From: Ruminococcus sp.
Lineage (GTDB): Bacteria > Bacillota > Clostridia > Oscillospirales > Ruminococcaceae
Length of the DNA: 64,000 nucleotides
Assembly: GCA_017460665.1 (NCBI GenBank)
Contig: JAFUAO010000100.1
Coordinates: forward strand, 575-64,574
Direction: 5' to 3'
The position numbers and the translations under genes are program-made. The stretch's first letter is position 1. Each line of letters begins with the position of its first letter. The notes below the pieces were generated by a model. The model was not told the origin of the DNA. It worked only from the letters and a program-made list of their open reading frames with translations, and did not search any database. Shown in pieces: positions 2 to 8,375 of this stretch.

Positions 2-1099
2 AGTAAACGAGTTAAACCACAATTTGGTGATCTTGTTTTTTCGTATGAAGCCACACTTGGCAGATACGCCTTAATTCCTGAAGGATTTTATGGCTGCTTA
101 GGAAGAAGATTAGCCTTATTAAGAGCCAAAACAGACCGTTTCAACATAAAATGGCTTTATTACTACTTTCTTTCTCCTGAGTGGACAGCGTATATCATCA
201 ACCATACAGTTAAGGGAAGTACTGTAAATAGAATATCAGTTGAGGATTTTCCTGATTTTGAAATTCCAGACACTGATAGACTTGTTCAGGATAGTATTGT
301 GGATGTGTTATCTACTATTGATGCTAAGGTTGATTTGAATAAAGCTGTAAACGATAATTTACAGCACCAACTCAAGCTGATGTACGACTATTGGTTCACT
401 CAGTTTGATTTCCCTGATGAGAACGGCAAGCCGTATCGTGCTTCTGGCGGTGCTATGGTGTGGAATGAGCAGTTGAAGCGTGAAATACCGCTATATTGGA
501 GCATAGGCACTGTTAGCGATTGTGTAGAGAAAATATCAACCGGCTTAAATCCACGAGATAATTTCGTACTCGGCAATGGTAGCATAAGATACATAACTGT
601 AAAAAACCTTACAACAACAGGTAGTTTGGATTTTTCAGGGTGTGACATGATAGATGAAGAAGCAAGAGCTATTGTCCACAGAAGATCGGATATAAGTGTA
701 GGAGACATTCTTTTTGCAAGTATAGCACCTTTAGGAAGGTGTTACCTTATTCAGCAAGATCCTGTTGATTGGGATATAAATGAATCTGTCTTTTCTATTA
801 GAAGCAAAACTGATACTGTTACTCCTGAATTTATGTATCTATACTTTCAGAGTGACAGCTTTATTCAAAAGGCTACAAACACATCAACGGGCAGTATATT
901 CAAAGGTATTCGCATAAATACTTTACTTGATACTGCGTTGATAGTTCCTGAATTGCAAGTGTGCAAGAGCTTCACAGATGCAGTAAAGCCGTTATTAGCT
1001 GAAATAAATAACAATTCTTCCGAAACTGCAAAACTAACAGCTCTCCGAGACTGGCTTCTGCCAATGCTGATGAACGGTCAAGCTACCATATCCGATTGA
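2..1099 (+). CDS. hsdS: Type I restriction-modification specificity subunit (5' truncated by window edge)
   Basis: Frame of ORF 299..1099 is open back to position 2 (SKRVKPQFGDLVFSYEATLG...); two TRD-like regions, central YWFTQFDFPDENGKPY...REIP spacer and C-terminal LTALRDWLLPMLMNGQ typical of HsdS. Confidence 0.93.
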   Translation, partial: SKRVKPQFGDLVFSYEATLGRYALIPEGFYGCLGRRLALLRAKTDRFNIKWLYYYFLSPEWTAYIINHTVKGSTVNRISVEDFPDFEIPDTDRLVQDSIVDVLSTIDAKVDLNKAVNDNLQHQLKLMYDYWFTQFDFPDENGKPYRASGGAMVWNEQLKREIPLYWSIGTVSDCVEKISTGLNPRDNFVLGNGSIRYITVKNLTTTGSLDFSGCDMIDEEARAIVHRRSDISVGDILFASIAPLGRCYLIQQDPVDWDINESVFSIRSKTDTVTPEFMYLYFQSDSFIQKATNTSTGSIFKGIRINTLLDTALIVPELQVCKSFTDAVKPLLAEINNNSSETAKLTALRDWLLPMLMNGQATISD

Positions 1100-1179
1100 T
1101 ACGATAAATTATCGTTTTTTGTATGATTCCCTTTATGAATATACTAAATCGTTATCACAATTTTTATGAGGAGAAAGAT

Positions 1180-3270
1180 ATGAATATTGATGATCCATAT
1201 TTTTATTATGTCGTTGTATTCCATTTAGAAGGCAGTACTACGCAAGAACCTATTATTCACGAACGTTTACCAAAAGAAAATATGCATCTATTAGATACTT
1301 CGGTAAGTGATATATTACCAGCAATTGAATTCATAATGCATCTTCCACGTCATATTTATGATTATTATGATTTGGATGAAGAATTTATAAATTCCCAATA
1401 TGACACACCTCATATGATTTATCTACTCCCAGATAGTGCCTTGCGTGACTTCTTTACCATGTTTCCAGTGCATCCTCATATTATCATAGTATCAGATTTT
1501 TGTTCACAAGAAACAATATCGTTCGCTGCAAGGTTAGAGCCGCTCATCTCTCCGATTCGTATGAAAAAGCTATACGATAAAACACTGAGGTATTATTGGA
1601 CAGTTCTACAACCGAATAATACTGATGGTTATGAACTACTGAATAATTTGGATTATCATTTTTTATTAAAGGATCAGCAGTTAATCGCATTGTCTGGTCT
1701 TTTTCAAAGCAGACAATTTGATGATGTCAGCTTTTATTTGCAGGAAGTCTTTAATTCACAAAATATCGAATCAGTTATTTTCAAAAAACAATGGGAGTAT
1801 ATGTGTAGAGTAAACGCTTATCTATATATGAAAAGAAATTATTCCATGAGTGATTATGATAATGCTTCAAAATTTCAAAAATTGTATTTAGAATCATGTG
1901 AACACGTAAAGTATACGACTGATTTAAGCTTAATAATTACAATGCCAGGTGTACCGAAAGAACAAATCAAATATGGGATATCTGCATCGTACGTAACAAG
2001 AGATGAATTAAGAGCTATTCGTATTATTGGCGTTCATAAAGCCGTTTCAAGGAAAGGCGTTCTTATTGAATTAGAGCGAGTTTCCATTGAAACTTTTTCT
2101 CTCTTATCTAACATTGAGAAAGAATGCATAGATGGAACGAACAATAAACATATTTGGCAGTCATTAAAAAAGTTAGGTAAACAGCTTGGCTCTGCTTTTT
2201 CAAATGAACAAATCGAATACATTAAAAGAGCGAAGGACATTACGGTATTCTCCGACTTCCCAATAGGATTAGCTATATTAGGCGAAGATGAGTTGCCGCT
2301 ACATTGTTATAAAGCTATTTCATATCGTCCTCTTTCTCCCTTGACACGGCAACTTCAAATAGAACTAAAGAAAACATCAGAATACTACCTCGGAAAAGGT
2401 AAAAGAATAAAAATATTATTTGCTGAATGCATTAAAGATGATGTAGAAAACAATCTCATCTTTAAGTATTCTGAGACTGTTTTTGATGCAATCAAAAACA
2501 TTATCAATAATGATGATTTTCAGATTATATATCGCAGAACCAACAATATAGATAATATGCTTGATTTTATAGAATGTAATACCGATGCAGATATATTATA
2601 TATTTCGGCACACGGCCATTACAATAAACATAGAAATTGCGCTGGAATCATGGTCGGAGATGAATTTTGGATGGCTGATCAAAATATACGGGTGCCGCCA
2701 CTTGTTATACTAAGTGCTTGCCATACAAGTCCGAGAGGGATAGGTGCAGTAAACATAGCAGATTTGTTTGTTAGAAATGGTGCTATTGCTGTTTTAAGCA
2801 CTTTTATTCCTGTTAACGCTCAAAGAAATATGATAATAATGACACGATTATTTACTTATATTTCCGAAGCACAAAAAGGCTCTGATCAATATAAAACTTT
2901 ATCGGATTTATGGAATGGGATAGTAATTACCAATGCACTTCATGAAATTCTAAGTGAATCAAAAAGACTAAAAACATGGATGCACCAAATTGGTAAGAAT
3001 GGTATTCCACGAACGGTTGATTTTCAATTAAACAGATCAGTTGGTAGATTACGAAATACTCACTCCTATAGTGATACAATAATAATTATCAAAGAAATGC
3101 TAAAGGAAGAAGGACTTGAGGGGAAATATTCAAATATTCTTGATCAATTTGATTGTTTCCCTGAATCATTTTTTTATCAGTTTATTGGTAGTCCAGAAAA
3201 TATATTCTTATATAATGATACTTTTCGAGAAGCAATTGAACTTGGCTTACCATTCAACGATATAAAATAA
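1180..3270 (+). CDS. CHAT-domain (caspase HetF-associated) protease with long uncharacterised N-terminus
   Basis: ILYISAHG and LVILSACH motifs give the His/Cys caspase-like dyad; ATG 1180 follows GAGGAG (ORF track start 1123). Confidence 0.8.
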   Translation: MNIDDPYFYYVVVFHLEGSTTQEPIIHERLPKENMHLLDTSVSDILPAIEFIMHLPRHIYDYYDLDEEFINSQYDTPHMIYLLPDSALRDFFTMFPVHPHIIIVSDFCSQETISFAARLEPLISPIRMKKLYDKTLRYYWTVLQPNNTDGYELLNNLDYHFLLKDQQLIALSGLFQSRQFDDVSFYLQEVFNSQNIESVIFKKQWEYMCRVNAYLYMKRNYSMSDYDNASKFQKLYLESCEHVKYTTDLSLIITMPGVPKEQIKYGISASYVTRDELRAIRIIGVHKAVSRKGVLIELERVSIETFSLLSNIEKECIDGTNNKHIWQSLKKLGKQLGSAFSNEQIEYIKRAKDITVFSDFPIGLAILGEDELPLHCYKAISYRPLSPLTRQLQIELKKTSEYYLGKGKRIKILFAECIKDDVENNLIFKYSETVFDAIKNIINNDDFQIIYRRTNNIDNMLDFIECNTDADILYISAHGHYNKHRNCAGIMVGDEFWMADQNIRVPPLVILSACHTSPRGIGAVNIADLFVRNGAIAVLSTFIPVNAQRNMIIMTRLFTYISEAQKGSDQYKTLSDLWNGIVITNALHEILSESKRLKTWMHQIGKNGIPRTVDFQLNRSVGRLRNTHSYSDTIIIIKEMLKEEGLEGKYSNILDQFDCFPESFFYQFIGSPENIFLYNDTFREAIELGLPFNDIK

Positions 3271-3315
3271 GTATTTGTTCCTTTTGATAGTGTCAGATAA
3301 AAGAGGTGAATTTTT

Positions 3316-3825
3316 ATGGCAAGGGTATTTGGTCAAGATACAGAAGAAAACCGTAAAGAGCGAAAATCATATCAAGTTTTATTTGGACTTATGAATACAG
3401 ATATTTGGTCATTTCTCGGAAGAGATAACCATGATCATGGCGTTGATTATTCTTTTGAATACATTGAAAATGGTGAATTCAGAGGGTACAGAATTCTTGC
3501 ACAAATAAAAGGAAGCAAGGTCACCAAGATTAGTAACAATGAAGTCGTTTTCGACTTGCCAGTGAAAACAGCGAATTACGCAGTTGGGAGTTCGCAGCCT
3601 TTTATACTGTTTTTTGTGAATTTGCTAACCGAGTGCGCATATTATCTTCCGCTACAGGATTATTTTATCGCTAATCCAGATAAGATGGACGCATTGGAGA
3701 AAAACACAAGCACAATTCGAGTTTTCATTCCATTGAATAATACTATAGAAGATCCGGAGCTGGTTGCTGTTGCCAAATCACAGTATTCATTTGATGAAGA
3801 ACACGGACTGAGAAAAACACGGTAA
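3316..3825 (+). CDS. DUF4365-family protein, PD-(D/E)xK nuclease-like fold
   Basis: DHGVDY...LAQIKG pattern (D-x-G-h-D ... Q-h-K) typical of DUF4365; GAGGTG RBS; 45 bp downstream of CHAT gene. Confidence 0.72.
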   Translation: MARVFGQDTEENRKERKSYQVLFGLMNTDIWSFLGRDNHDHGVDYSFEYIENGEFRGYRILAQIKGSKVTKISNNEVVFDLPVKTANYAVGSSQPFILFFVNLLTECAYYLPLQDYFIANPDKMDALEKNTSTIRVFIPLNNTIEDPELVAVAKSQYSFDEEHGLRKTR

Positions 3826-3943
3826 TTTCTTCTGTTTTCTTTTTTCCTTTTAAACATGTATGAGCGACATATACATTACATAGTTCTATCAATAACCTCA
3901 AATCAAACTATGATTGCAGGTAAAAAATTGTATATGCCAGCTT

Positions 3944-4239
3944 AAAAGTGTACCAAAAACCAGTAAAACGCTGACGAAAAAGTGTACCAGAAAATAGCTT
4001 GGTTTAAGGAGGACCGCCACCCTTGACAGAACCTGAAAGAAATGCTTTACAGTCGGTGCCGACGGTGACGAACTCAAGAACAGCTACAAAGTATTCCTGT
4101 CAGATAGCCGATTATAGCATTTCTTTCAGAACCTGTCAAGGGCAAGCCGCCTTACGGCGGTGGCTGGTTTTGCCTCCGGTTCGGAATCTAAGAACAGCTA
4201 TCTGGTACACTGTCTGATTAGCGTTTGTGGTACACTTTT
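3944..4239. repeat. Nested inverted-repeat element with AAAAGTGTACCA boxes and a 27-bp imperfect inverted repeat
   Basis: AAAAGTGTACCA at 3944 and 3978; inverted TGGTACACT at 4203 and TGGTACACTTTT at 4228; CCCTTGACAG-aacc-TGAAAGAAATGCT (4020-4046) versus its inverse at 4116-4142. Confidence 0.8.
4111..4139 (-). promoter_or_regulatory. Consensus sigma70/sigmaA promoter firing leftward
   Basis: Minus strand TTGACA (4139-4134), 17-bp spacer, TGC-TATAAT (4116-4111). Confidence 0.6.
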
Positions 4240-4285
4240 GAATCAGCATTCACAAAAATCAAAGTTAACATAATAATAAATATCA

Positions 4286-5010
4286 CACCGGCAAAGCCGG
4301 TGGTTTTATAACAGCCCTAAAAGGGCACTTTACCAGCCGCCCCTTAAGGGGCACGTTGGAAGCTAAAGCTACCTACCGCATTTATAGTTACTTTTACTTC
4401 TTCAGGTCTTTAAAAGGATCCATGTATTCCTTAAATGATATTTGGTCATACATCATATCTTCCTTTTCCTGTTCACGGATATATTTTGCTATTCCATTCT
4501 TATTTCCGCCAACAGTGCTAACATAATATCCTCTGCACCAAAAATGCCGGTTTCCGTACTTGTATTTCAGGTTGGAGTATCGTTCAAATATTATCATTGT
4601 ACTCTTGCCTTTCAAGTATCCCATAAAATCGCTTATTCGCTGATTTGGCGGTATTTCTACAAGCATATGTATATGGTCTGGCATTGCGTTTGCTTCTATT
4701 ATGTTTACGTGTTTTCTTTCGCACAGTTCTCGTAATATCGCTCCTATATCTTTTTTTAGCTTCCCATATATCACTTTTCTCCTGTACTTTGGTGCAAATA
4801 CTATATGGTATTGACATTTCCAGCTTGTATGTGATAAACTATATGTATCATTAGATTTATTTTCCATTCTAATGTCCTCCTTGATTCTTTGTAATGCGGT
4901 TGGTAGCCTATTACTATTGTACATCAAGGAGGTTTTCTTGTCTATTGCTTCTCGCCGTTTATTCTTTTACTAAAGTTTATACATTCCACCTGCACAGCAG
5001 GTGGTTTTTT
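4286..5010 (-). mobile_element. IS200/IS605-family element, tnpA only (IS200 type)
   Basis: Y1 transposase flanked by related hairpins CACCGGC-aaa-GCCGGTG (4286-4302) and CCACCTGC-aca-GCAGGTGG (4986-5004); exact ends approximate. Confidence 0.85.
4394..4867 (-). CDS. tnpA: IS200/IS605 Y1 (HUH) transposase
   Basis: YHIVFAPKYRR, DHIHML (HUH), FWCRGYY, catalytic Tyr in IAKYIREQ; ATG 4867 with GGAGG RBS. Confidence 0.95.
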   Translation of the reverse strand: MENKSNDTYSLSHTSWKCQYHIVFAPKYRRKVIYGKLKKDIGAILRELCERKHVNIIEANAMPDHIHMLVEIPPNQRISDFMGYLKGKSTMIIFERYSNLKYKYGNRHFWCRGYYVSTVGGNKNGIAKYIREQEKEDMMYDQISFKEYMDPFKDLKK

Positions 5011-5061: not shown

Positions 5062-5502
5062 TTATATGTCGATATCATAATTCTTGCCATCGATGGCTGT
5101 AATCAGTACTTCCTCGTTTTTATTAATCTGTTTCTTCAACTTAAATAATTGAACTTTAGTCAACGGAGGCACAAAAGCTACATCGGAAGGTTTATAATCG
5201 CCGTTTATAATGCGAGTGTAGACATCGGATACAAATGTATGCCAAGGTAACAGATCAGTATCTGCTTCTTTATCCAATATAAATGAATAGCCGTCGGCAC
5301 GATAAAACACAAGAAGCGCAGTGCTTAATGAGCAACAAGGATTATTTATGATTACTGCCGGAATATCAAATCCATTACCCCAAGTGTAATTATATGCAAA
5401 AACATACCATTCATCATCATCACACTCGGCAAGAAAAGCTTTTACTTTCTCCTCGTCTACTTCGTAAATCATATCTAATAAAAGTTCTTTTCTCATATCC
5501 AC
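5062..5502 (-). CDS. DUF4274-domain protein (possible immunity protein)
   Basis: FAYNYTWGNGFDIPAVIINNPCCSLSTALLVFYRADG matches my recollection of the DUF4274 pattern. Confidence 0.7.
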   Translation of the reverse strand: MDMRKELLLDMIYEVDEEKVKAFLAECDDDEWYVFAYNYTWGNGFDIPAVIINNPCCSLSTALLVFYRADGYSFILDKEADTDLLPWHTFVSDVYTRIINGDYKPSDVAFVPPLTKVQLFKLKKQINKNEEVLITAIDGKNYDIDI

Positions 5503-5541
5503 CCGCTCTTTACTTCAGTTTGACTAAGTATATGACTATTA

Positions 5542-5850
5542 TTATGCAAAACTTGTAGGCTTGATAGGATTTTCCATTCTCTTACCGTTAGGGAGCTTAT
5601 AGTCAAGGATAGTCACTTCCCCAGTTTTCCTGTTCACAGATACCCTTGCGAAAACTTTCCACTTATAATCATTTTCGTCCATATCATCAATATCATCGAA
5701 ACCGATAAAATACTCATATTCAACATCATCATATTTATCATCAGGATATGAATGACACGAACCTTCAAAATGCTCTCGGAAATAATCCCTGCCCATTAAA
5801 TCTGCAATTGCAAGCCAAGCGTCTACCTTTGCCTGTTCCTTAGTCAGCAT
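5542..5850 (-). CDS. Small acidic hypothetical protein (candidate immunity protein)
   Basis: 102 aa, D/E-rich, start overlaps the stop of upstream ORF by 1 bp with GGAGGT RBS. Confidence 0.7.
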   Translation of the reverse strand: MLTKEQAKVDAWLAIADLMGRDYFREHFEGSCHSYPDDKYDDVEYEYFIGFDDIDDMDENDYKWKVFARVSVNRKTGEVTILDYKLPNGKRMENPIKPTSFA

Positions 5851-6485
5851 TATTTACCACCTCCAAAAAGTTCCATTAATGCTCTTCTGCGAGCATCATC
5901 AAGCGTACTTGATACTGTTCCTGTTTCAATTACGCCATGCTCATCAAAAAGTGTAGTTCTTCCGTTAGGCGTTACTATTGAGCTTTCACGCTGTCCTGTT
6001 GTCTGTCTAAGTTTGCGCATCATTAAGCGGTCAGACTTCGAGGGGACACAATCGTCATTATGAGGGTGACTATGGAAATCCAGCGTTCCAGAATGCATTT
6101 TCATTTCATCAAGCAGTTCGTTTGGAATCACTGTACCACCTTTATCACCACGAATGAGATAGGTTTTTCCACCAATTGTCACACGGGCAAATTCAACGCC
6201 AGTTTCTTTTGACATAATACTTACATCTGATATACTAAACTCACCAATTGATCCGGTAATAGAATCGCCCTTGTTTTGTAACTGTGATAGCTTTTCTTTT
6301 ATGTGTTCAGGTATATCTACACCTCGTTCAGAATAACTCTCAATATCGTTTGAGTCATTAAGATATGTGCTGTTTATTGCCGCTTCATTTTCCTTAGCCT
6401 TAGCTGCTAATTCATCATTATCAAGCGTAAGCTGGGGAGAACCGCTTGTGCCGCTTGCAAGTCCGGACTTTGCACCGTCAGCCAT
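5850..6485 (-). CDS. Protein with C-terminal JAB/MPN-like metallo-motif (candidate toxin)
   Basis: VEF...FHSHPHNDDCVPSKSD (E...HxH...S-x2-D); low-complexity G/S-rich N-terminus; overlaps DUF4417 gene end by 8 bp. Confidence 0.65.
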   Translation of the reverse strand: MADGAKSGLASGTSGSPQLTLDNDELAAKAKENEAAINSTYLNDSNDIESYSERGVDIPEHIKEKLSQLQNKGDSITGSIGEFSISDVSIMSKETGVEFARVTIGGKTYLIRGDKGGTVIPNELLDEMKMHSGTLDFHSHPHNDDCVPSKSDRLMMRKLRQTTGQRESSIVTPNGRTTLFDEHGVIETGTVSSTLDDARRRALMELFGGGK

Positions 6486-7353
6486 TTCTGCTCACCGCCT
6501 TTCGGTTAGCAGTGTTACGGGCTTTGAGTGTATTGTCGGGAATAACGATCTCAATCCCCTTACTGATAGCATATGCAAAGCATTCCATGACCCTATCGTT
6601 AGTTCCGCAAGAATCATAAACAACAATAGCTTTGAGTTTGAGATGATCGACTGTAAAGCGTATCTTCCAGAGAAGTCGCTCATATTCAACCTTATCCTGC
6701 AAGTGTGACTTGGTGCTCATAGCTACGACCGAGCATTCTTCATATCCGTCAAGAGCATAAGCGGCACTTCTTTCGGTAGGGAAAGAAATATTAGGTATCA
6801 CCACAGCTCCAATCTCAACGATAAACCATATAGCCACAACACGGGCTTTGAAAAGCCTGTATTCGTTCTCTATAACATGAATATCGCCAAATTCCGAATA
6901 ATCAGGAGATATAAAGAACTTTACGCCCTCAAACCGCTTTTTGAAATAAGCAAGCCTTGCAGTATCATCGTGGTATATAGCTTCGTATAAGCCACGTTTA
7001 CCGTCAAAGACAGAATCAAACTGATAAAAGCAGACACCTGTCCTGTCAGTCTTATGATAAAGCCCCGGCTCAGAGTAAAGTGCGAGGAAATCGGGATACA
7101 CCTCGGTCTTACAATAAAGCGCAGGGAGATCCTTTTCGCCGCAGCTATGCGTCTTGTTAGTATAATTGAGAAAGCTGAAATTCAACAGTTTGCTCAATGT
7201 TTGTCTTGATTTCAATACAAAACTCTCCTTTCTCCTGTCAACAGGAAAACAGATGATAAATTCGTATAATCTGCCGCTTGACAAAGGAGAGGGAGTTGTG
7301 ATATAATAAACTTGTCTAAGGTTACGATCATATCGTAACTCCCCGAAACGCAT
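6478..7353 (-). CDS. DUF4417-domain protein
   Basis: FYQFD...FFISPDYSEFGD...VVIPNISF...VVAMSTK follows the DUF4417 motif order; true start may be downstream of 7353. Confidence 0.75.
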   Translation of the reverse strand: MRFGELRYDRNLRQVYYITTPSPLSSGRLYEFIICFPVDRRKESFVLKSRQTLSKLLNFSFLNYTNKTHSCGEKDLPALYCKTEVYPDFLALYSEPGLYHKTDRTGVCFYQFDSVFDGKRGLYEAIYHDDTARLAYFKKRFEGVKFFISPDYSEFGDIHVIENEYRLFKARVVAIWFIVEIGAVVIPNISFPTERSAAYALDGYEECSVVAMSTKSHLQDKVEYERLLWKIRFTVDHLKLKAIVVYDSCGTNDRVMECFAYAISKGIEIVIPDNTLKARNTANRKAVSRNG

Positions 7354-7444
7354 TGACTTGTTGTTACCAGCAACTTGTCAGTGCGTTTTTCCTTTGTCTT
7401 GATCGTAGTCCATTGGGATCACCATACCTTTCAATACAATACTA

Positions 7445-7987
7445 TCATTTTTTATTCTTATCTTGCTTTACCCTATACTTTGCAGATGCTTCTGTTACAG
7501 GGTATTTCTCCATAATTGCTTTGGCTTTCATACCAACAGTAGCATCATATGGAATGGTCAACTCTCCGCAAAGTGCCTTTGCCTGCCATTCGACACTGCA
7601 ATATGCAGGGATTTCTTCATCCTTTGCGAGAGTACGGGTTGAAACAGGCGTATAACCAAGATAGAACAGTATCACATGACATATTTCATGACATATGAAG
7701 CACAGAAAAGCTCTGTTGCCGTGATAGCAAGCACCATCATAGACTGTCTGTTTGATCTCAATCATGAATCCGCCTTCAGGCTTAGGATAACACCAGGCAA
7801 ATACATCAGCAGGCAGTTTATCATCTTCAAGCACAGAATACTCTGTACCTTCAAATATAATACAAGTCCGTTCGAGGATTTCAAGAACTGGGAACGGTTC
7901 GGATTCGTTCAACCCAAAAATCTTTCTAACATATTTACTTATCTGCCTGATAGCAATTCTGCTGAGGGGTTTGGTCATATAATCCAT
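7445..7987 (-). CDS. ImmA/IrrE-family metallo-endopeptidase (Peptidase_M78)
   Basis: ICHEICH (HExxH) plus VEWQAKALCGELTIP; translationally coupled to XRE gene. Confidence 0.88.
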   Translation of the reverse strand: MDYMTKPLSRIAIRQISKYVRKIFGLNESEPFPVLEILERTCIIFEGTEYSVLEDDKLPADVFAWCYPKPEGGFMIEIKQTVYDGACYHGNRAFLCFICHEICHVILFYLGYTPVSTRTLAKDEEIPAYCSVEWQAKALCGELTIPYDATVGMKAKAIMEKYPVTEASAKYRVKQDKNKK

Positions 7988-8352
7988 TAGTTATTACCAC
8001 TCCTTTTCAGCAATTCCATGATCTTTTCGGCTGTATCCTCGTCAATTCCATCAAATGAGCGGGCAAATTGTAACGCCACCTCTCTTTGATAGTTTGCTGA
8101 CTTGGACAGTGTGATCTTAACTTGGTTTTTTGAATTTTCAGCCGCTGTCTTCATATCTGCGATTTCATCATCAGAAAGGGCATAATGCTCAGCAATGATG
8201 TCAAACCATTCATCGGGGACATTTTTTCGTCCGTTTTCAACCGCTGATAAAAAAGGAGTAGAGACACCGAGCAGTTTAGCAACATCGCCCATGACCTCAT
8301 GATGCTGAACACGAAGGACTCTCATGAACTCGCCAAATTTAGTATATGTCAT
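7987..8352 (-). CDS. XRE-family HTH transcriptional regulator
   Basis: MGDVAKLLGVSTPFLSAVENGRKNVP HTH_3 pattern; ATG 8352 with AGGAGG RBS. Confidence 0.88.
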   Translation of the reverse strand: MTYTKFGEFMRVLRVQHHEVMGDVAKLLGVSTPFLSAVENGRKNVPDEWFDIIAEHYALSDDEIADMKTAAENSKNQVKITLSKSANYQREVALQFARSFDGIDEDTAEKIMELLKRSGNN

Positions 8353-8375
8353 CTTGATACACCTCCTTACCAAAT

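What the first reader, a model, noticed from the sequence alone, without database searches (positions are those of the whole stretch)
1180..3825. Candidate two-gene defence system: CHAT caspase-like protease + stand-alone DUF4365 nuclease-fold protein
Seen: a 696-aa protein with an intact caspase-type dyad (SAHG, SACH) in its C-terminal third and about 400 unassignable N-terminal residues. It is followed 45 bp later, with no terminator, by a 169-aa protein with a D-x-G-h-D...Q-h-K motif. Both are AT-rich and directly behind hsdS. Known: CHAT proteases act in immunity (Craspase, SAVED-CHAT; from memory also Borvo), and DUF4365 is a PD-(D/E)xK-type fold usually fused to sensor domains. Inference: the unknown N-terminus senses phage, and the protease activates or releases the small nuclease-like partner (abortive infection). 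I see no TPR, NACHT or SAVED domain, so the sensor would be new.
Basis: partly seen in the sequence, partly recalled or inferred. Interest (0 to 1): 0.78.

Follow-up and report, generated by a model that had tools for sequence, protein, structure and literature searches.

The report
Borvo-type protease beside unrelated small nuclease
The two genes are real, but they are not a new two-gene defence system: the large one is a distant member of the known single-gene Borvo (BovA) anti-phage protease family, dropped as a one-gene cassette in front of an independent small nuclease gene.

Summary
Both ORFs exist as described. The first is a 696-aa CHAT protein (1180-3270) with an intact His478/Cys514 dyad. 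The second, 45 bp downstream, is a 169-aa DUF4365 protein (3316-3825) with a D-x-G-x-D...Q-x-K motif. Both lie behind hsdS.

The pairing does not hold elsewhere. None of 70 genomic loci with CHAT relatives has a DUF4365 gene within 6 kb, and no neighbour is conserved. At least eight other DUF4365 lineages (36-89% identity) lack the CHAT gene. In the closest relatives (89% and 85%), DUF4365 sits 52 nt after hsdS. The window's flanks match this empty site up to about 1132 and again from about 3295. So about 2.16 kb (32% GC) carrying only the CHAT gene is a cassette gained here or lost there.

The CHAT protein matches the PADLOC BovA model (E 4e-32). It is colinear with canonical E. coli-type BovA (hhalign 99.9%, 642 columns), so it is a distant Borvo-family member.

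The small protein is a bare DREN nuclease domain, as in the SPARDA effector, with its catalytic residues conserved (Foldseek E 3e-8). Its role as a stand-alone gene is unknown.

Verdict: two independent AT-rich island genes, a new member of a known kind, of modest interest.

The parts
2..1099 (+). 3' part of hsdS, the type I specificity subunit (422 aa in full-length copies). It is the last gene of an integrase-driven, phase-variable hsdM-hsdS locus. This is context, not part of a CHAT system.
   Evidence: PADLOC Specificity_I E 5.8e-75 and Pfam Methylase_S. The full locus is seen in the near-identical contig L072: hsdM, hsdS half, inverted hsdS half, integrase, hsdS.
1133..3294 (+). About 2.16-kb single-gene cassette (32.3% GC) carrying the CHAT gene. 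It interrupts the 52-nt hsdS-DUF4365 spacer seen in the closest relatives. Boundaries are approximate, to within a few bases.
   Evidence: Homology to the empty site in L098/L097 runs up to window 1132 and resumes at 3295.
1180..3270 (+). bovA-like gene. It encodes a 696-aa Borvo-family CHAT (caspase-like) protease. The CHAT core spans residues about 300-600, followed by a conserved C-terminal tail (FPESFFYQFIGSPENI). The N-terminal about 275 residues are a divergent, family-specific module.
2611..2721 (+). Catalytic dyad region: the His478 codon (2611-2613, in ISAHG) to the Cys514 codon (2719-2721, in LSACH).
   Evidence: Both residues are invariant in 74 homologues. They align with H528/C567 of canonical BovA.
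3316..3825 (+). Stand-alone DUF4365 / DREN-type PD-(D/E)xK nuclease gene (169 aa) with its own RBS. Its evolutionary history is independent of the CHAT gene.
   Evidence: Pfam PF14280 E 2e-11. PADLOC PDC-M02A E 1e-8. AlphaFold pLDDT 92.8. Foldseek top hits are SPARDA DREN domains.
3433..3510 (+). Nuclease motif D40-H-G-V-D44 ... E48 ... Q63-I-K65. D44, Q63 and K65 correspond to D41, Q60 and K62 of NbaSPARDA DREN.
   Evidence: Conservation is shown. The catalytic roles come from PMC12205087 and PMC10810196.
4394..4927 (-). IS200/IS605-type Y1 transposase (tnpA). It is a recent insertion downstream of the DUF4365 gene. This is context only.
   Evidence: Pfam Y1_Tnp E 6.8e-42. The element is absent from the otherwise 99.6%-identical contig L076.

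Best explanation
The region holds two independent, horizontally acquired defence-island genes that are adjacent only in this lineage.

(1) Gene 1180-3270 encodes a distant member of the BovA family. It belongs to a clade found in Bacillota and Actinomycetota. BovA is the single protein of the Borvo abortive-infection system. By analogy with E. coli Borvo (inference), the family-specific N-terminal region keeps the C-terminal caspase-like His478/Cys514 protease inactive. A phage replication protein would then release it; in E. coli this is the phage DNA polymerase. The protease would cleave host or phage proteins and stop the infected cell. It needs no partner gene.

(2) Gene 3316-3825 encodes a bare DREN (DUF4365) PD-(D/E)xK nuclease domain with an intact D44/Q63/K65 site. 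It occurs on its own in variable loci of gut Bacillota. In SPARDA, isolated DREN is monomeric and inactive, and cuts only as a tetramer. The stand-alone protein probably also needs oligomerisation or another cue to cut DNA. That would make it a candidate single-gene restriction-like or abortive nuclease (inference, untested).

Shown: the ancestral arrangement in the closest relatives is hsdS, a 52-nt spacer, then DUF4365. The CHAT gene sits in that spacer on a cassette of about 2.16 kb with lower GC. The tight spacing and likely co-transcription are therefore an accident of insertion, not evidence of a system.
For: Identity of the CHAT protein:
- PADLOC BovA, E 3.9e-32, over residues 275-680.
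- hhalign of a 74-sequence alignment of this clade against a 35-sequence alignment of canonical BovA: probability 99.85%, E 9e-31, 642 columns, residues 5-681 against 13-725.
- The N-terminal parts alone give E 6e-5 and are colinear (30-120 against 39-131). Crossed controls give E 0.3-0.5.
- His and Cys are invariant.
- The model has pLDDT 90.4. Its best PDB matches are Csx29 TPR-CHAT, SAVED-CHAT and separase.

Single-gene nature:
- In 70 genomic loci, no DUF4365 was found with a subfamily HMM at E<=10 or with Pfam on 114 flanking genes.
- No neighbour family is shared beyond close relatives.
- Neighbours are assorted defence genes such as GmrSD, PLD, AbiEii-type ATPases and a Schlafen-like helicase.
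- The 67%-identical homologue stands alone.
- The gene is absent from 40 of 40 related genomes.

Independence of DUF4365:
- Homologues at 89, 85, 71, 70, 63, 59, 57, 54 and 36% identity lack the CHAT gene.
- The empty site is shown in L097/L098/L099/L092.
- The pair is seen only in contigs 99-100% identical to the window.

Nuclease identity.

Literature:
- Borvo is a single gene that acts by abortive infection and is triggered by phage DNA polymerase (10.1101/2022.08.27.505566).
- A Borvo-like system is active in S. thermophilus (PMC12322248).
- DREN catalytic residues and the tetramer requirement (PMC12205087; PMC10810196).
Against: - The match to the BovA HMM is partial and weak compared with a canonical BovA: 110 bits against 801 bits.
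- Pairwise BLASTP to canonical BovA finds only 89 residues at 34% identity.
- N-terminal homology is weak (probability 65%), so the trigger may differ from E. coli Borvo.
- No experiment exists for this clade or for stand-alone DUF4365.
- The two genes are 45 bp apart on one strand with no terminator, so they are probably co-transcribed here. A secondarily evolved functional link in this lineage cannot be excluded.
- Many metagenomic contigs of DUF4365 relatives are short. For some (L100, L103) absence of the CHAT gene is shown only for the immediate flank.
Confidence: 0.85

Rival explanations
1. After the cassette landed upstream of DUF4365, the two genes became a functional pair. The CHAT protease would sense phage and activate or release the small nuclease by cleavage or binding.
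For: The genes lie on the same strand with a 45-bp gap. There is no terminator between them. The arrangement is kept unchanged in eight metagenomic contigs of the lineage. CHAT proteases with dedicated substrates do exist; Craspase Csx29-Csx30 is among the best structural matches.
Against: There is no co-occurrence outside one 99-100%-identical lineage. Each family is complete and conserved without the other. The 169-aa protein is entirely DREN domain (Foldseek aligns 155-167 of 169 residues). That leaves no pro-peptide or inhibitory extension for a protease to remove. One lineage variant (L075) has the CHAT gene split into two ORFs while the DUF4365 protein is unchanged.
Confidence: 0.06
2. 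The DUF4365 nuclease belongs functionally to the phase-variable hsdM-hsdS locus that precedes it. It would be a small nuclease partner of an hsdR-less methyltransferase/specificity complex. The Borvo-like cassette would merely have been inserted between them.
For: In four lineages (the window, and the 89% and 85% relatives) DUF4365 directly follows hsdS with a 52-nt spacer. No hsdR lies next to hsdM; the genes upstream are metE, a lysR-family regulator and a CBM/dockerin protein. The genome, 93% complete, has no TIGR00348 HsdR match.
Against: These four lineages are close relatives sharing one syntenic locus, so this counts as one evolutionary event. More distant DUF4365 homologues (36-71% identity) sit beside AbiH, AbiJ-N-terminal-domain or polysaccharide genes with no methyltransferase. 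A fixed-specificity nuclease would be lethal beside a switching S subunit unless the M-S complex recruited it, and nothing shows that. HsdR could lie on an unassembled or unrecognised contig; ResIII helicases of 822 and 1030 aa exist elsewhere in the genome.
Confidence: 0.06
3. The CHAT protein is not a defence protein. It would be a regulatory or housekeeping caspase-like protease whose similarity to BovA is only a shared fold.
For: CHAT domains also occur in non-defence proteins, for example the DdvA anti-sigma factor and separase, which are among the structural hits. No experiment exists for this clade.
Against: Colinearity with BovA extends over the full length, well beyond the CHAT core and including the C-terminal tail. 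Distribution is sporadic: 0 of 40 relatives carry it. The gene is AT-rich and behaves as a cassette. Its neighbours elsewhere are defence and mobile genes.
Confidence: 0.03

Closest known systems
Borvo defence system (BovA of E. coli 403116; Millman et al. 2022; trigger study 10.1101/2022.08.27.505566); PADLOC model PDLC03831
   Same: - It is a single protein of about 700 aa with no conserved partner.
- The CHAT His/Cys protease core is in the same position.
- It shares the conserved C-terminal tail.
- It is colinear with BovA over about 640 columns.
- It is an AT-rich, sporadically distributed cassette in defence or mobile contexts.
   Different: - It is very divergent. It scores 110 bits on the BovA HMM against 801 bits for a canonical copy from phage Ayreon.
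- BLASTP finds only 89 residues at 34% identity.
- The N-terminal about 275 residues are barely recognisable (E 6e-5). The trigger need not be a phage DNA polymerase.
- The host is a gut Bacillota organism, and the gene follows a type I RM locus rather than sitting in a lambdoid prophage int-xis slot.
'Borvo-like' system tested in Streptococcus thermophilus (PMC12322248)
   Same: It is a BovA-related CHAT protein in a Bacillota host, and it was shown experimentally to block phages.
   Different: That system is annotated as two BovA-type ORFs, whereas the window has one intact 696-aa ORF. The sequence relationship to the window's protein was not tested here.
DREN (DUF4365) nuclease domain of SPARDA DREN-APAZ (PDB 9jsz/9jt2, 9qcc, 9vx6; PMC12205087, PMC10810196)
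   Same: It has the same PD-(D/E)xK fold (Foldseek E 3e-8, TM 0.64-0.68, about 3 A over about 158 residues). It has the same catalytic D/Q-x-K residues.
   Different: It has no APAZ domain and no short Argonaute nearby. The whole 169-aa protein is just the nuclease domain. How it is controlled is therefore unknown, since isolated SPARDA DREN is monomeric and inactive.
PADLOC phage-defence candidate PDC-M02 (gene A)
   Same: The small protein matches eight PDC-M02A models. Five score below E 1e-3, and the best is E 1e-8 over 122 residues.
   Different: No neighbour of this gene or of its homologues matched any PDC-M02 partner model. The definition of that candidate system could not be consulted, and no paper in the library mentions it.
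CHAT protease plus dedicated substrate systems (Craspase Csx29-Csx30, SAVED-CHAT)
   Same: The CHAT domain is the best structural match.
   Different: There is no TPR, SAVED or CRISPR component. There is also no conserved co-encoded substrate gene.

Membership tests
Borvo (BovA) | Significant match to the curated BovA profile (PADLOC PDLC03831) | tested here: met
   E 3.9e-32, 109.7 bits, residues 275-680 against profile positions 315-715 of 720. This is only 56% of the profile and much weaker than a canonical copy, which scores 801 bits. Other members of this clade score similarly, at 82-118 bits.
Borvo (BovA) | Full-length colinearity with canonical BovA, including the N-terminal non-protease region | tested here: inconclusive
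   Whole-protein hhalign gives 99.85%, E 9e-31, over 642 columns. The C-terminal 450 residues alone give E 1.7e-30. The N-terminal 240 residues alone give only 65% probability and E 6e-5 over 91 colinear columns, against E 0.3-0.5 for crossed controls.
Borvo (BovA) | Intact caspase-type His/Cys dyad in a CHAT domain | tested here: met
   Pfam CHAT is above its cut-off. H478 and C514 are invariant in 74 sequences. They align to H528/C567 of canonical BovA.
Borvo (BovA) | Single-gene system with no conserved partner gene | tested here: met
   In 70 loci the flanking genes form no shared family beyond close relatives. No DUF4365 was found. The 67% homologue is flanked by unrelated, convergent genes.
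Borvo (BovA) | Anti-phage abortive infection triggered by phage DNA polymerase | not testable with these tools
   This is known only for the E. coli 403116 allele (10.1101/2022.08.27.505566).
SPARDA (short pAgo + DREN-APAZ) | DUF4365/DREN nuclease domain with the catalytic D, Q-x-K residues | tested here: met
   Pfam E 2e-11. Foldseek gives SPARDA DREN as the top 13 hits. D44/Q63/K65 are conserved.
SPARDA (short pAgo + DREN-APAZ) | Fusion to an APAZ domain and an adjacent short Argonaute gene | tested here: not met
   The protein is 169 aa and consists entirely of the DREN domain. No PIWI/Argonaute or APAZ gene appears among the called genes within 6 kb.
PADLOC candidate PDC-M02 | Gene A model match together with its partner gene(s) | tested here: inconclusive
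   Gene A matches at E 1e-8. No other PDC-M02 model hit any neighbour here or in homologous loci. The system definition was not available.
   0 of 70 CHAT loci have DUF4365. 0 of at least 8 other DUF4365 lineages have the CHAT gene. The pair occurs only in contigs 99-100% identical to the window.

The most novel reading that the evidence does not exclude
The stand-alone 169-aa DREN (DUF4365) protein is itself a minimal single-gene defence nuclease. It would be the effector domain of SPARDA working without Argonaute or APAZ, and would switch on by self-tetramerisation on an infection cue. It hops between variable loci of gut Bacillota, such as the ends of capsule loci and positions beside AbiH, AbiJ-like genes and hsdS. 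A weaker companion idea is that the highly diverged N-terminal module of this Bacillota/Actinomycetota BovA clade senses a trigger other than the phage DNA polymerase.
Probability: 0.3. Interest if true: 0.5.

Novelty: new member of a known kind. Interest (0 to 1): 0.27.

Why it matters
The case shows that tight spacing, a shared strand and the lack of a terminator are not enough to call a defence 'system'. Here an empty-site comparison shows that a one-gene Borvo-type cassette simply landed in a 52-nt spacer.

Three practical points follow.
- It extends the Borvo family to a large, well-conserved clade in gut Bacillota and in Actinomycetota, with hundreds of homologues. A high-confidence model is now available for work on the trigger and the substrate.
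- It flags bare DREN nucleases as an untested candidate single-gene defence.
- It points to the 3' end of phase-variable hsdS loci as a landing site for defence cassettes.

Tried and rejected
- Subfamily HMM and Pfam scans for DUF4365 around 70 CHAT loci found nothing.
- A search for any conserved neighbour of the CHAT gene found only shallow, within-genus clusters.
- A search for a PDC-M02 partner among neighbours of DUF4365 homologues found none.
- A sequence-profile search of the CHAT family against PDB sequences gave no hit at E<=1.
- Foldseek on the full CHAT model gave specific hits only for the CHAT half. The N-terminal module gave only low-probability hits to periplasmic-binding-protein or flavodoxin-like folds (probability 0.2-0.4), which I do not accept as an assignment.
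- An exhaustive phmmer search with residues 1-275 looked for other architectures using this N-terminal module. All full-length hits are 660-735-aa proteins of the same type. The shorter hits look like contig fragments.
- tblastn against phage genomes found only canonical BovA in E. coli phages, matching 12% of the query.
- Looking for hsdR in the metagenomic contig L072 failed because the record is not held.
- No AlphaFold-multimer was available.
- Papers: none mentions PDC-M02, and none mentions DUF4365 together with CHAT.
Full report
**Observation.** The window holds, on the + strand, the 3' part of a type I specificity gene (2-1099). It is followed by a 696-aa ORF (1180-3270) with a GAGGAG RBS; an upstream in-frame ATG at 1123 would give 715 aa. 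After a 45-bp gap comes a 169-aa ORF (3316-3825) with its own RBS. No terminator-like site separates the two ORFs. Pfam assigns CHAT to residues 435-565 of the large protein and DUF4365 to the small one, both above the gathering score. The motifs ISAHG (His478), LSACH (Cys514) and D40-x-G-x-D44...Q63-x-K65 are present. They are invariant or nearly so in homologues. The segment is AT-rich: 38.5% GC for hsdS, 32.3% for the CHAT segment and 37.5% for DUF4365, against 51.5% for the window.

**What the large protein is.**
- PADLOC's only hit is BovA, the protein of the Borvo system (E 3.9e-32, residues 275-680 on profile positions 315-715 of 720).
- The protein has hundreds of full-length homologues of about 690 aa in Lachnospiraceae, Ruminococcus, Enterocloster, Bacillus, Paenibacillus and many Actinomycetota. 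Conservation covers the whole length, including the N-terminal third.
- For comparison with a canonical BovA, I took the CHAT gene between int and the early genes of E. coli phage Ayreon. It scores 801 bits on the BovA model.
- Pairwise BLASTP between it and the window's protein finds only 89 residues at 34% identity around the dyad.
- The profile of this clade (74 sequences) aligns to a profile of canonical BovA relatives (35 sequences) with 99.85% probability and E 9e-31. The alignment covers 642 columns, residues 5-681 against 13-725, and includes the C-terminal tail.
- Cutting the alignments in two gives E 1.7e-30 for the C-terminal 450 residues. The first 240 residues give a weak but colinear E 6e-5 (30-120 against 39-131). 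Crossed N-versus-C controls give E 0.3-0.5.
- The AlphaFold model is confident (pLDDT 90.4, pTM 0.91). Its PDB neighbours are Csx29 TPR-CHAT of Craspase, SAVED-CHAT, separases, DdvA and caspases. The N-terminal module has no convincing structural relative.
- An exhaustive search with residues 1-275 finds that module only at the N-terminus of 660-735-aa proteins of this same type.
- I therefore file the gene as a distant member of the BovA family. Homology of the N-terminal module is only weakly shown.

**What the small protein is.**
- It is a complete DREN-type PD-(D/E)xK nuclease domain and nothing else. The model has pLDDT 92.8.
- The 13 best PDB matches are the DREN domain of SPARDA DREN-APAZ (E down to 3e-8, TM 0.64-0.68, about 3 A over about 158 of 169 residues). 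RecU/PrfA, I-Ssp6803I, PvuII and Hjc follow.
- A profile search aligns DHGVD...QIK with EAGID...QIK of NbaSPARDA. Window D44, Q63 and K65 therefore correspond to the catalytic D41, Q60 and K62 (PMC12205087) and to Q62/K64 of TmuRE (PMC10810196).
- PADLOC matches it weakly to the candidate gene PDC-M02A (E 1e-8).

**Test of the two-gene hypothesis.**
- From the CHAT side: 70 distinct genomic loci with relatives were fetched with 6-kb flanks. A DUF4365 subfamily HMM at E<=10 hit none of them.
- Pfam on 114 immediately flanking genes did not find DUF4365 in any. Clustering of those neighbours gave no family shared beyond close relatives.
- The neighbours are a mix of defence and mobile genes: GmrSD, PLD, AbiEii-type and other ATPases, a Schlafen-like helicase, NUDIX, integrases and TnpV.
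- The 67%-identical homologue stands alone between unrelated genes.
- From the DUF4365 side: homologues at 89, 85, 71, 70, 63, 59, 57, 54 and 36% identity have no CHAT gene next to them.
- In 40 related genomes, the BovA model hits none and DUF4365 hits one. That one copy is 36% identical, has no BovA and lies next to a MerR-type gene.
- The pair is found only in eight metagenomic contigs that are 99-100% identical in DNA to the window, so this is a single lineage.

**Empty site.**
- In the closest DUF4365 relatives (P0122, 89%, in L097-L099; P0123, 85%, in L092) the gene directly follows an hsdS half-gene. That half-gene appears in either orientation, as expected for the integrase-driven shufflon. 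The spacer is 52 nt.
- The window's sequence matches that arrangement up to about 1132 (…TGATACGATAAATTATCGTTT…). It matches again from about 3295 (…TAAAAGAGGTGAAT…ATG).
- The roughly 2.16 kb in between contains the CHAT gene and its RBS, and has the lowest GC of the three parts.
- The CHAT gene is therefore a one-gene cassette gained here, or precisely lost in the relatives. The 45-bp spacing is a by-product. This fits Borvo being a single-gene system.

**Mechanism.**
- Shown: the family assignments, the intact catalytic residues, the independence of the two genes and the cassette structure.
- Inferred by analogy for the CHAT protein: E. coli Borvo acts by abortive infection and is set off by phage DNA polymerase. 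Escape mutations lie in the proofreading cleft, and co-expression is toxic (10.1101/2022.08.27.505566). A Borvo-like locus protects S. thermophilus (PMC12322248). I infer a self-contained sensor-protease. The N-terminal module would hold the CHAT domain inactive until a phage replication protein appears. Because the N-terminal module is so divergent, the trigger may differ.
- Inferred for the small nuclease: isolated SPARDA DREN is monomeric and inactive, and cuts only as a tetramer. The stand-alone protein probably needs oligomerisation or another cue. A restriction-like or abortive role is plausible from its variable, island-like locations, but it is untested.

**Rivals.**
- A lineage-specific functional pair remains possible (about 6%). 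However, the small protein has no extension that a protease could remove. One lineage variant has a split CHAT gene with an unchanged DUF4365 protein.
- A link between DUF4365 and the hsdR-less hsdM-hsdS locus is a second minor possibility (about 6%). No hsdR is adjacent to hsdM, and there is no TIGR00348 hit in the 93%-complete genome. More distant DUF4365 homologues have no methyltransferase nearby, though.

**Limits.** No multimer prediction was possible. Several metagenomic contigs are short. DefenseFinder and the PADLOC system rules could not be run.

**Verdict.** The proposed new two-gene CHAT-nuclease system is not supported. The finding is a new, distant member of a known single-gene system next to an independent, uncharacterised small nuclease.

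Noticed in passing
window 2-1099; L072:1-3784; G000 contig C59 (L117:11139-12797): The type I locus is phase-variable: hsdM, an hsdS half, an inverted hsdS half, a tyrosine integrase, then a full hsdS. It appears to lack hsdR. The genes upstream of hsdM are metE, a lysR-family regulator and a CBM/dockerin protein. The 93%-complete genome has no TIGR00348 (HsdR) match. The assembly breaks inside the shufflon.
   Followed up: partly
window 4394-4927 (-) and flanking hairpins about 3940-4310: There is an IS200/IS605-type Y1 transposase just downstream of DUF4365. The otherwise 99.6%-identical contig L076 lacks it, so the insertion is recent.
   Followed up: partly
window 5062-8373 (-); L076:3254-4993: This is an XRE, ImmA-like (weak Peptidase_M78), DUF4417, 211-aa (weak JAB motif), 102-aa, DUF4274 operon. 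In L076 the 211-aa and 102-aa genes are replaced by an AHH-nuclease-domain gene (PF14412) between the same DUF4417 and DUF4274 genes. That suggests swapping of toxin/immunity cassettes.
   Followed up: no
L075:3885-5955: In one metagenomic variant (99% DNA identity) the CHAT gene is split into ORFs of 268 and 325 aa, while the DUF4365 protein is identical. This is either pseudogenisation or an assembly error.
   Followed up: no
L041-L047, L052 (about 40 nt upstream of the CHAT gene): Six Streptomyces loci share a conserved 114-122-aa gene with no Pfam family, 40-94 nt upstream of their BovA-like gene on the same strand. It could be a clade-specific partner or just shallow synteny.
   Followed up: partly
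L080:7801-8142; L104:5651-5998: A coiled-coil protein of about 115 aa (weak HmpF/SMC-like hits) follows the DUF4365 gene in two lineages (57% and 54% relatives). In L104 it is immediately downstream. In L080 it comes after an AbiJ-N-terminal-domain gene.
   Followed up: no
L080, L086, L090, L091, L106: Stand-alone DUF4365 genes repeatedly sit at the 3' end of polysaccharide/capsule biosynthesis clusters in gut Bacillota. This may be another hotspot for accessory genes.
   Followed up: no
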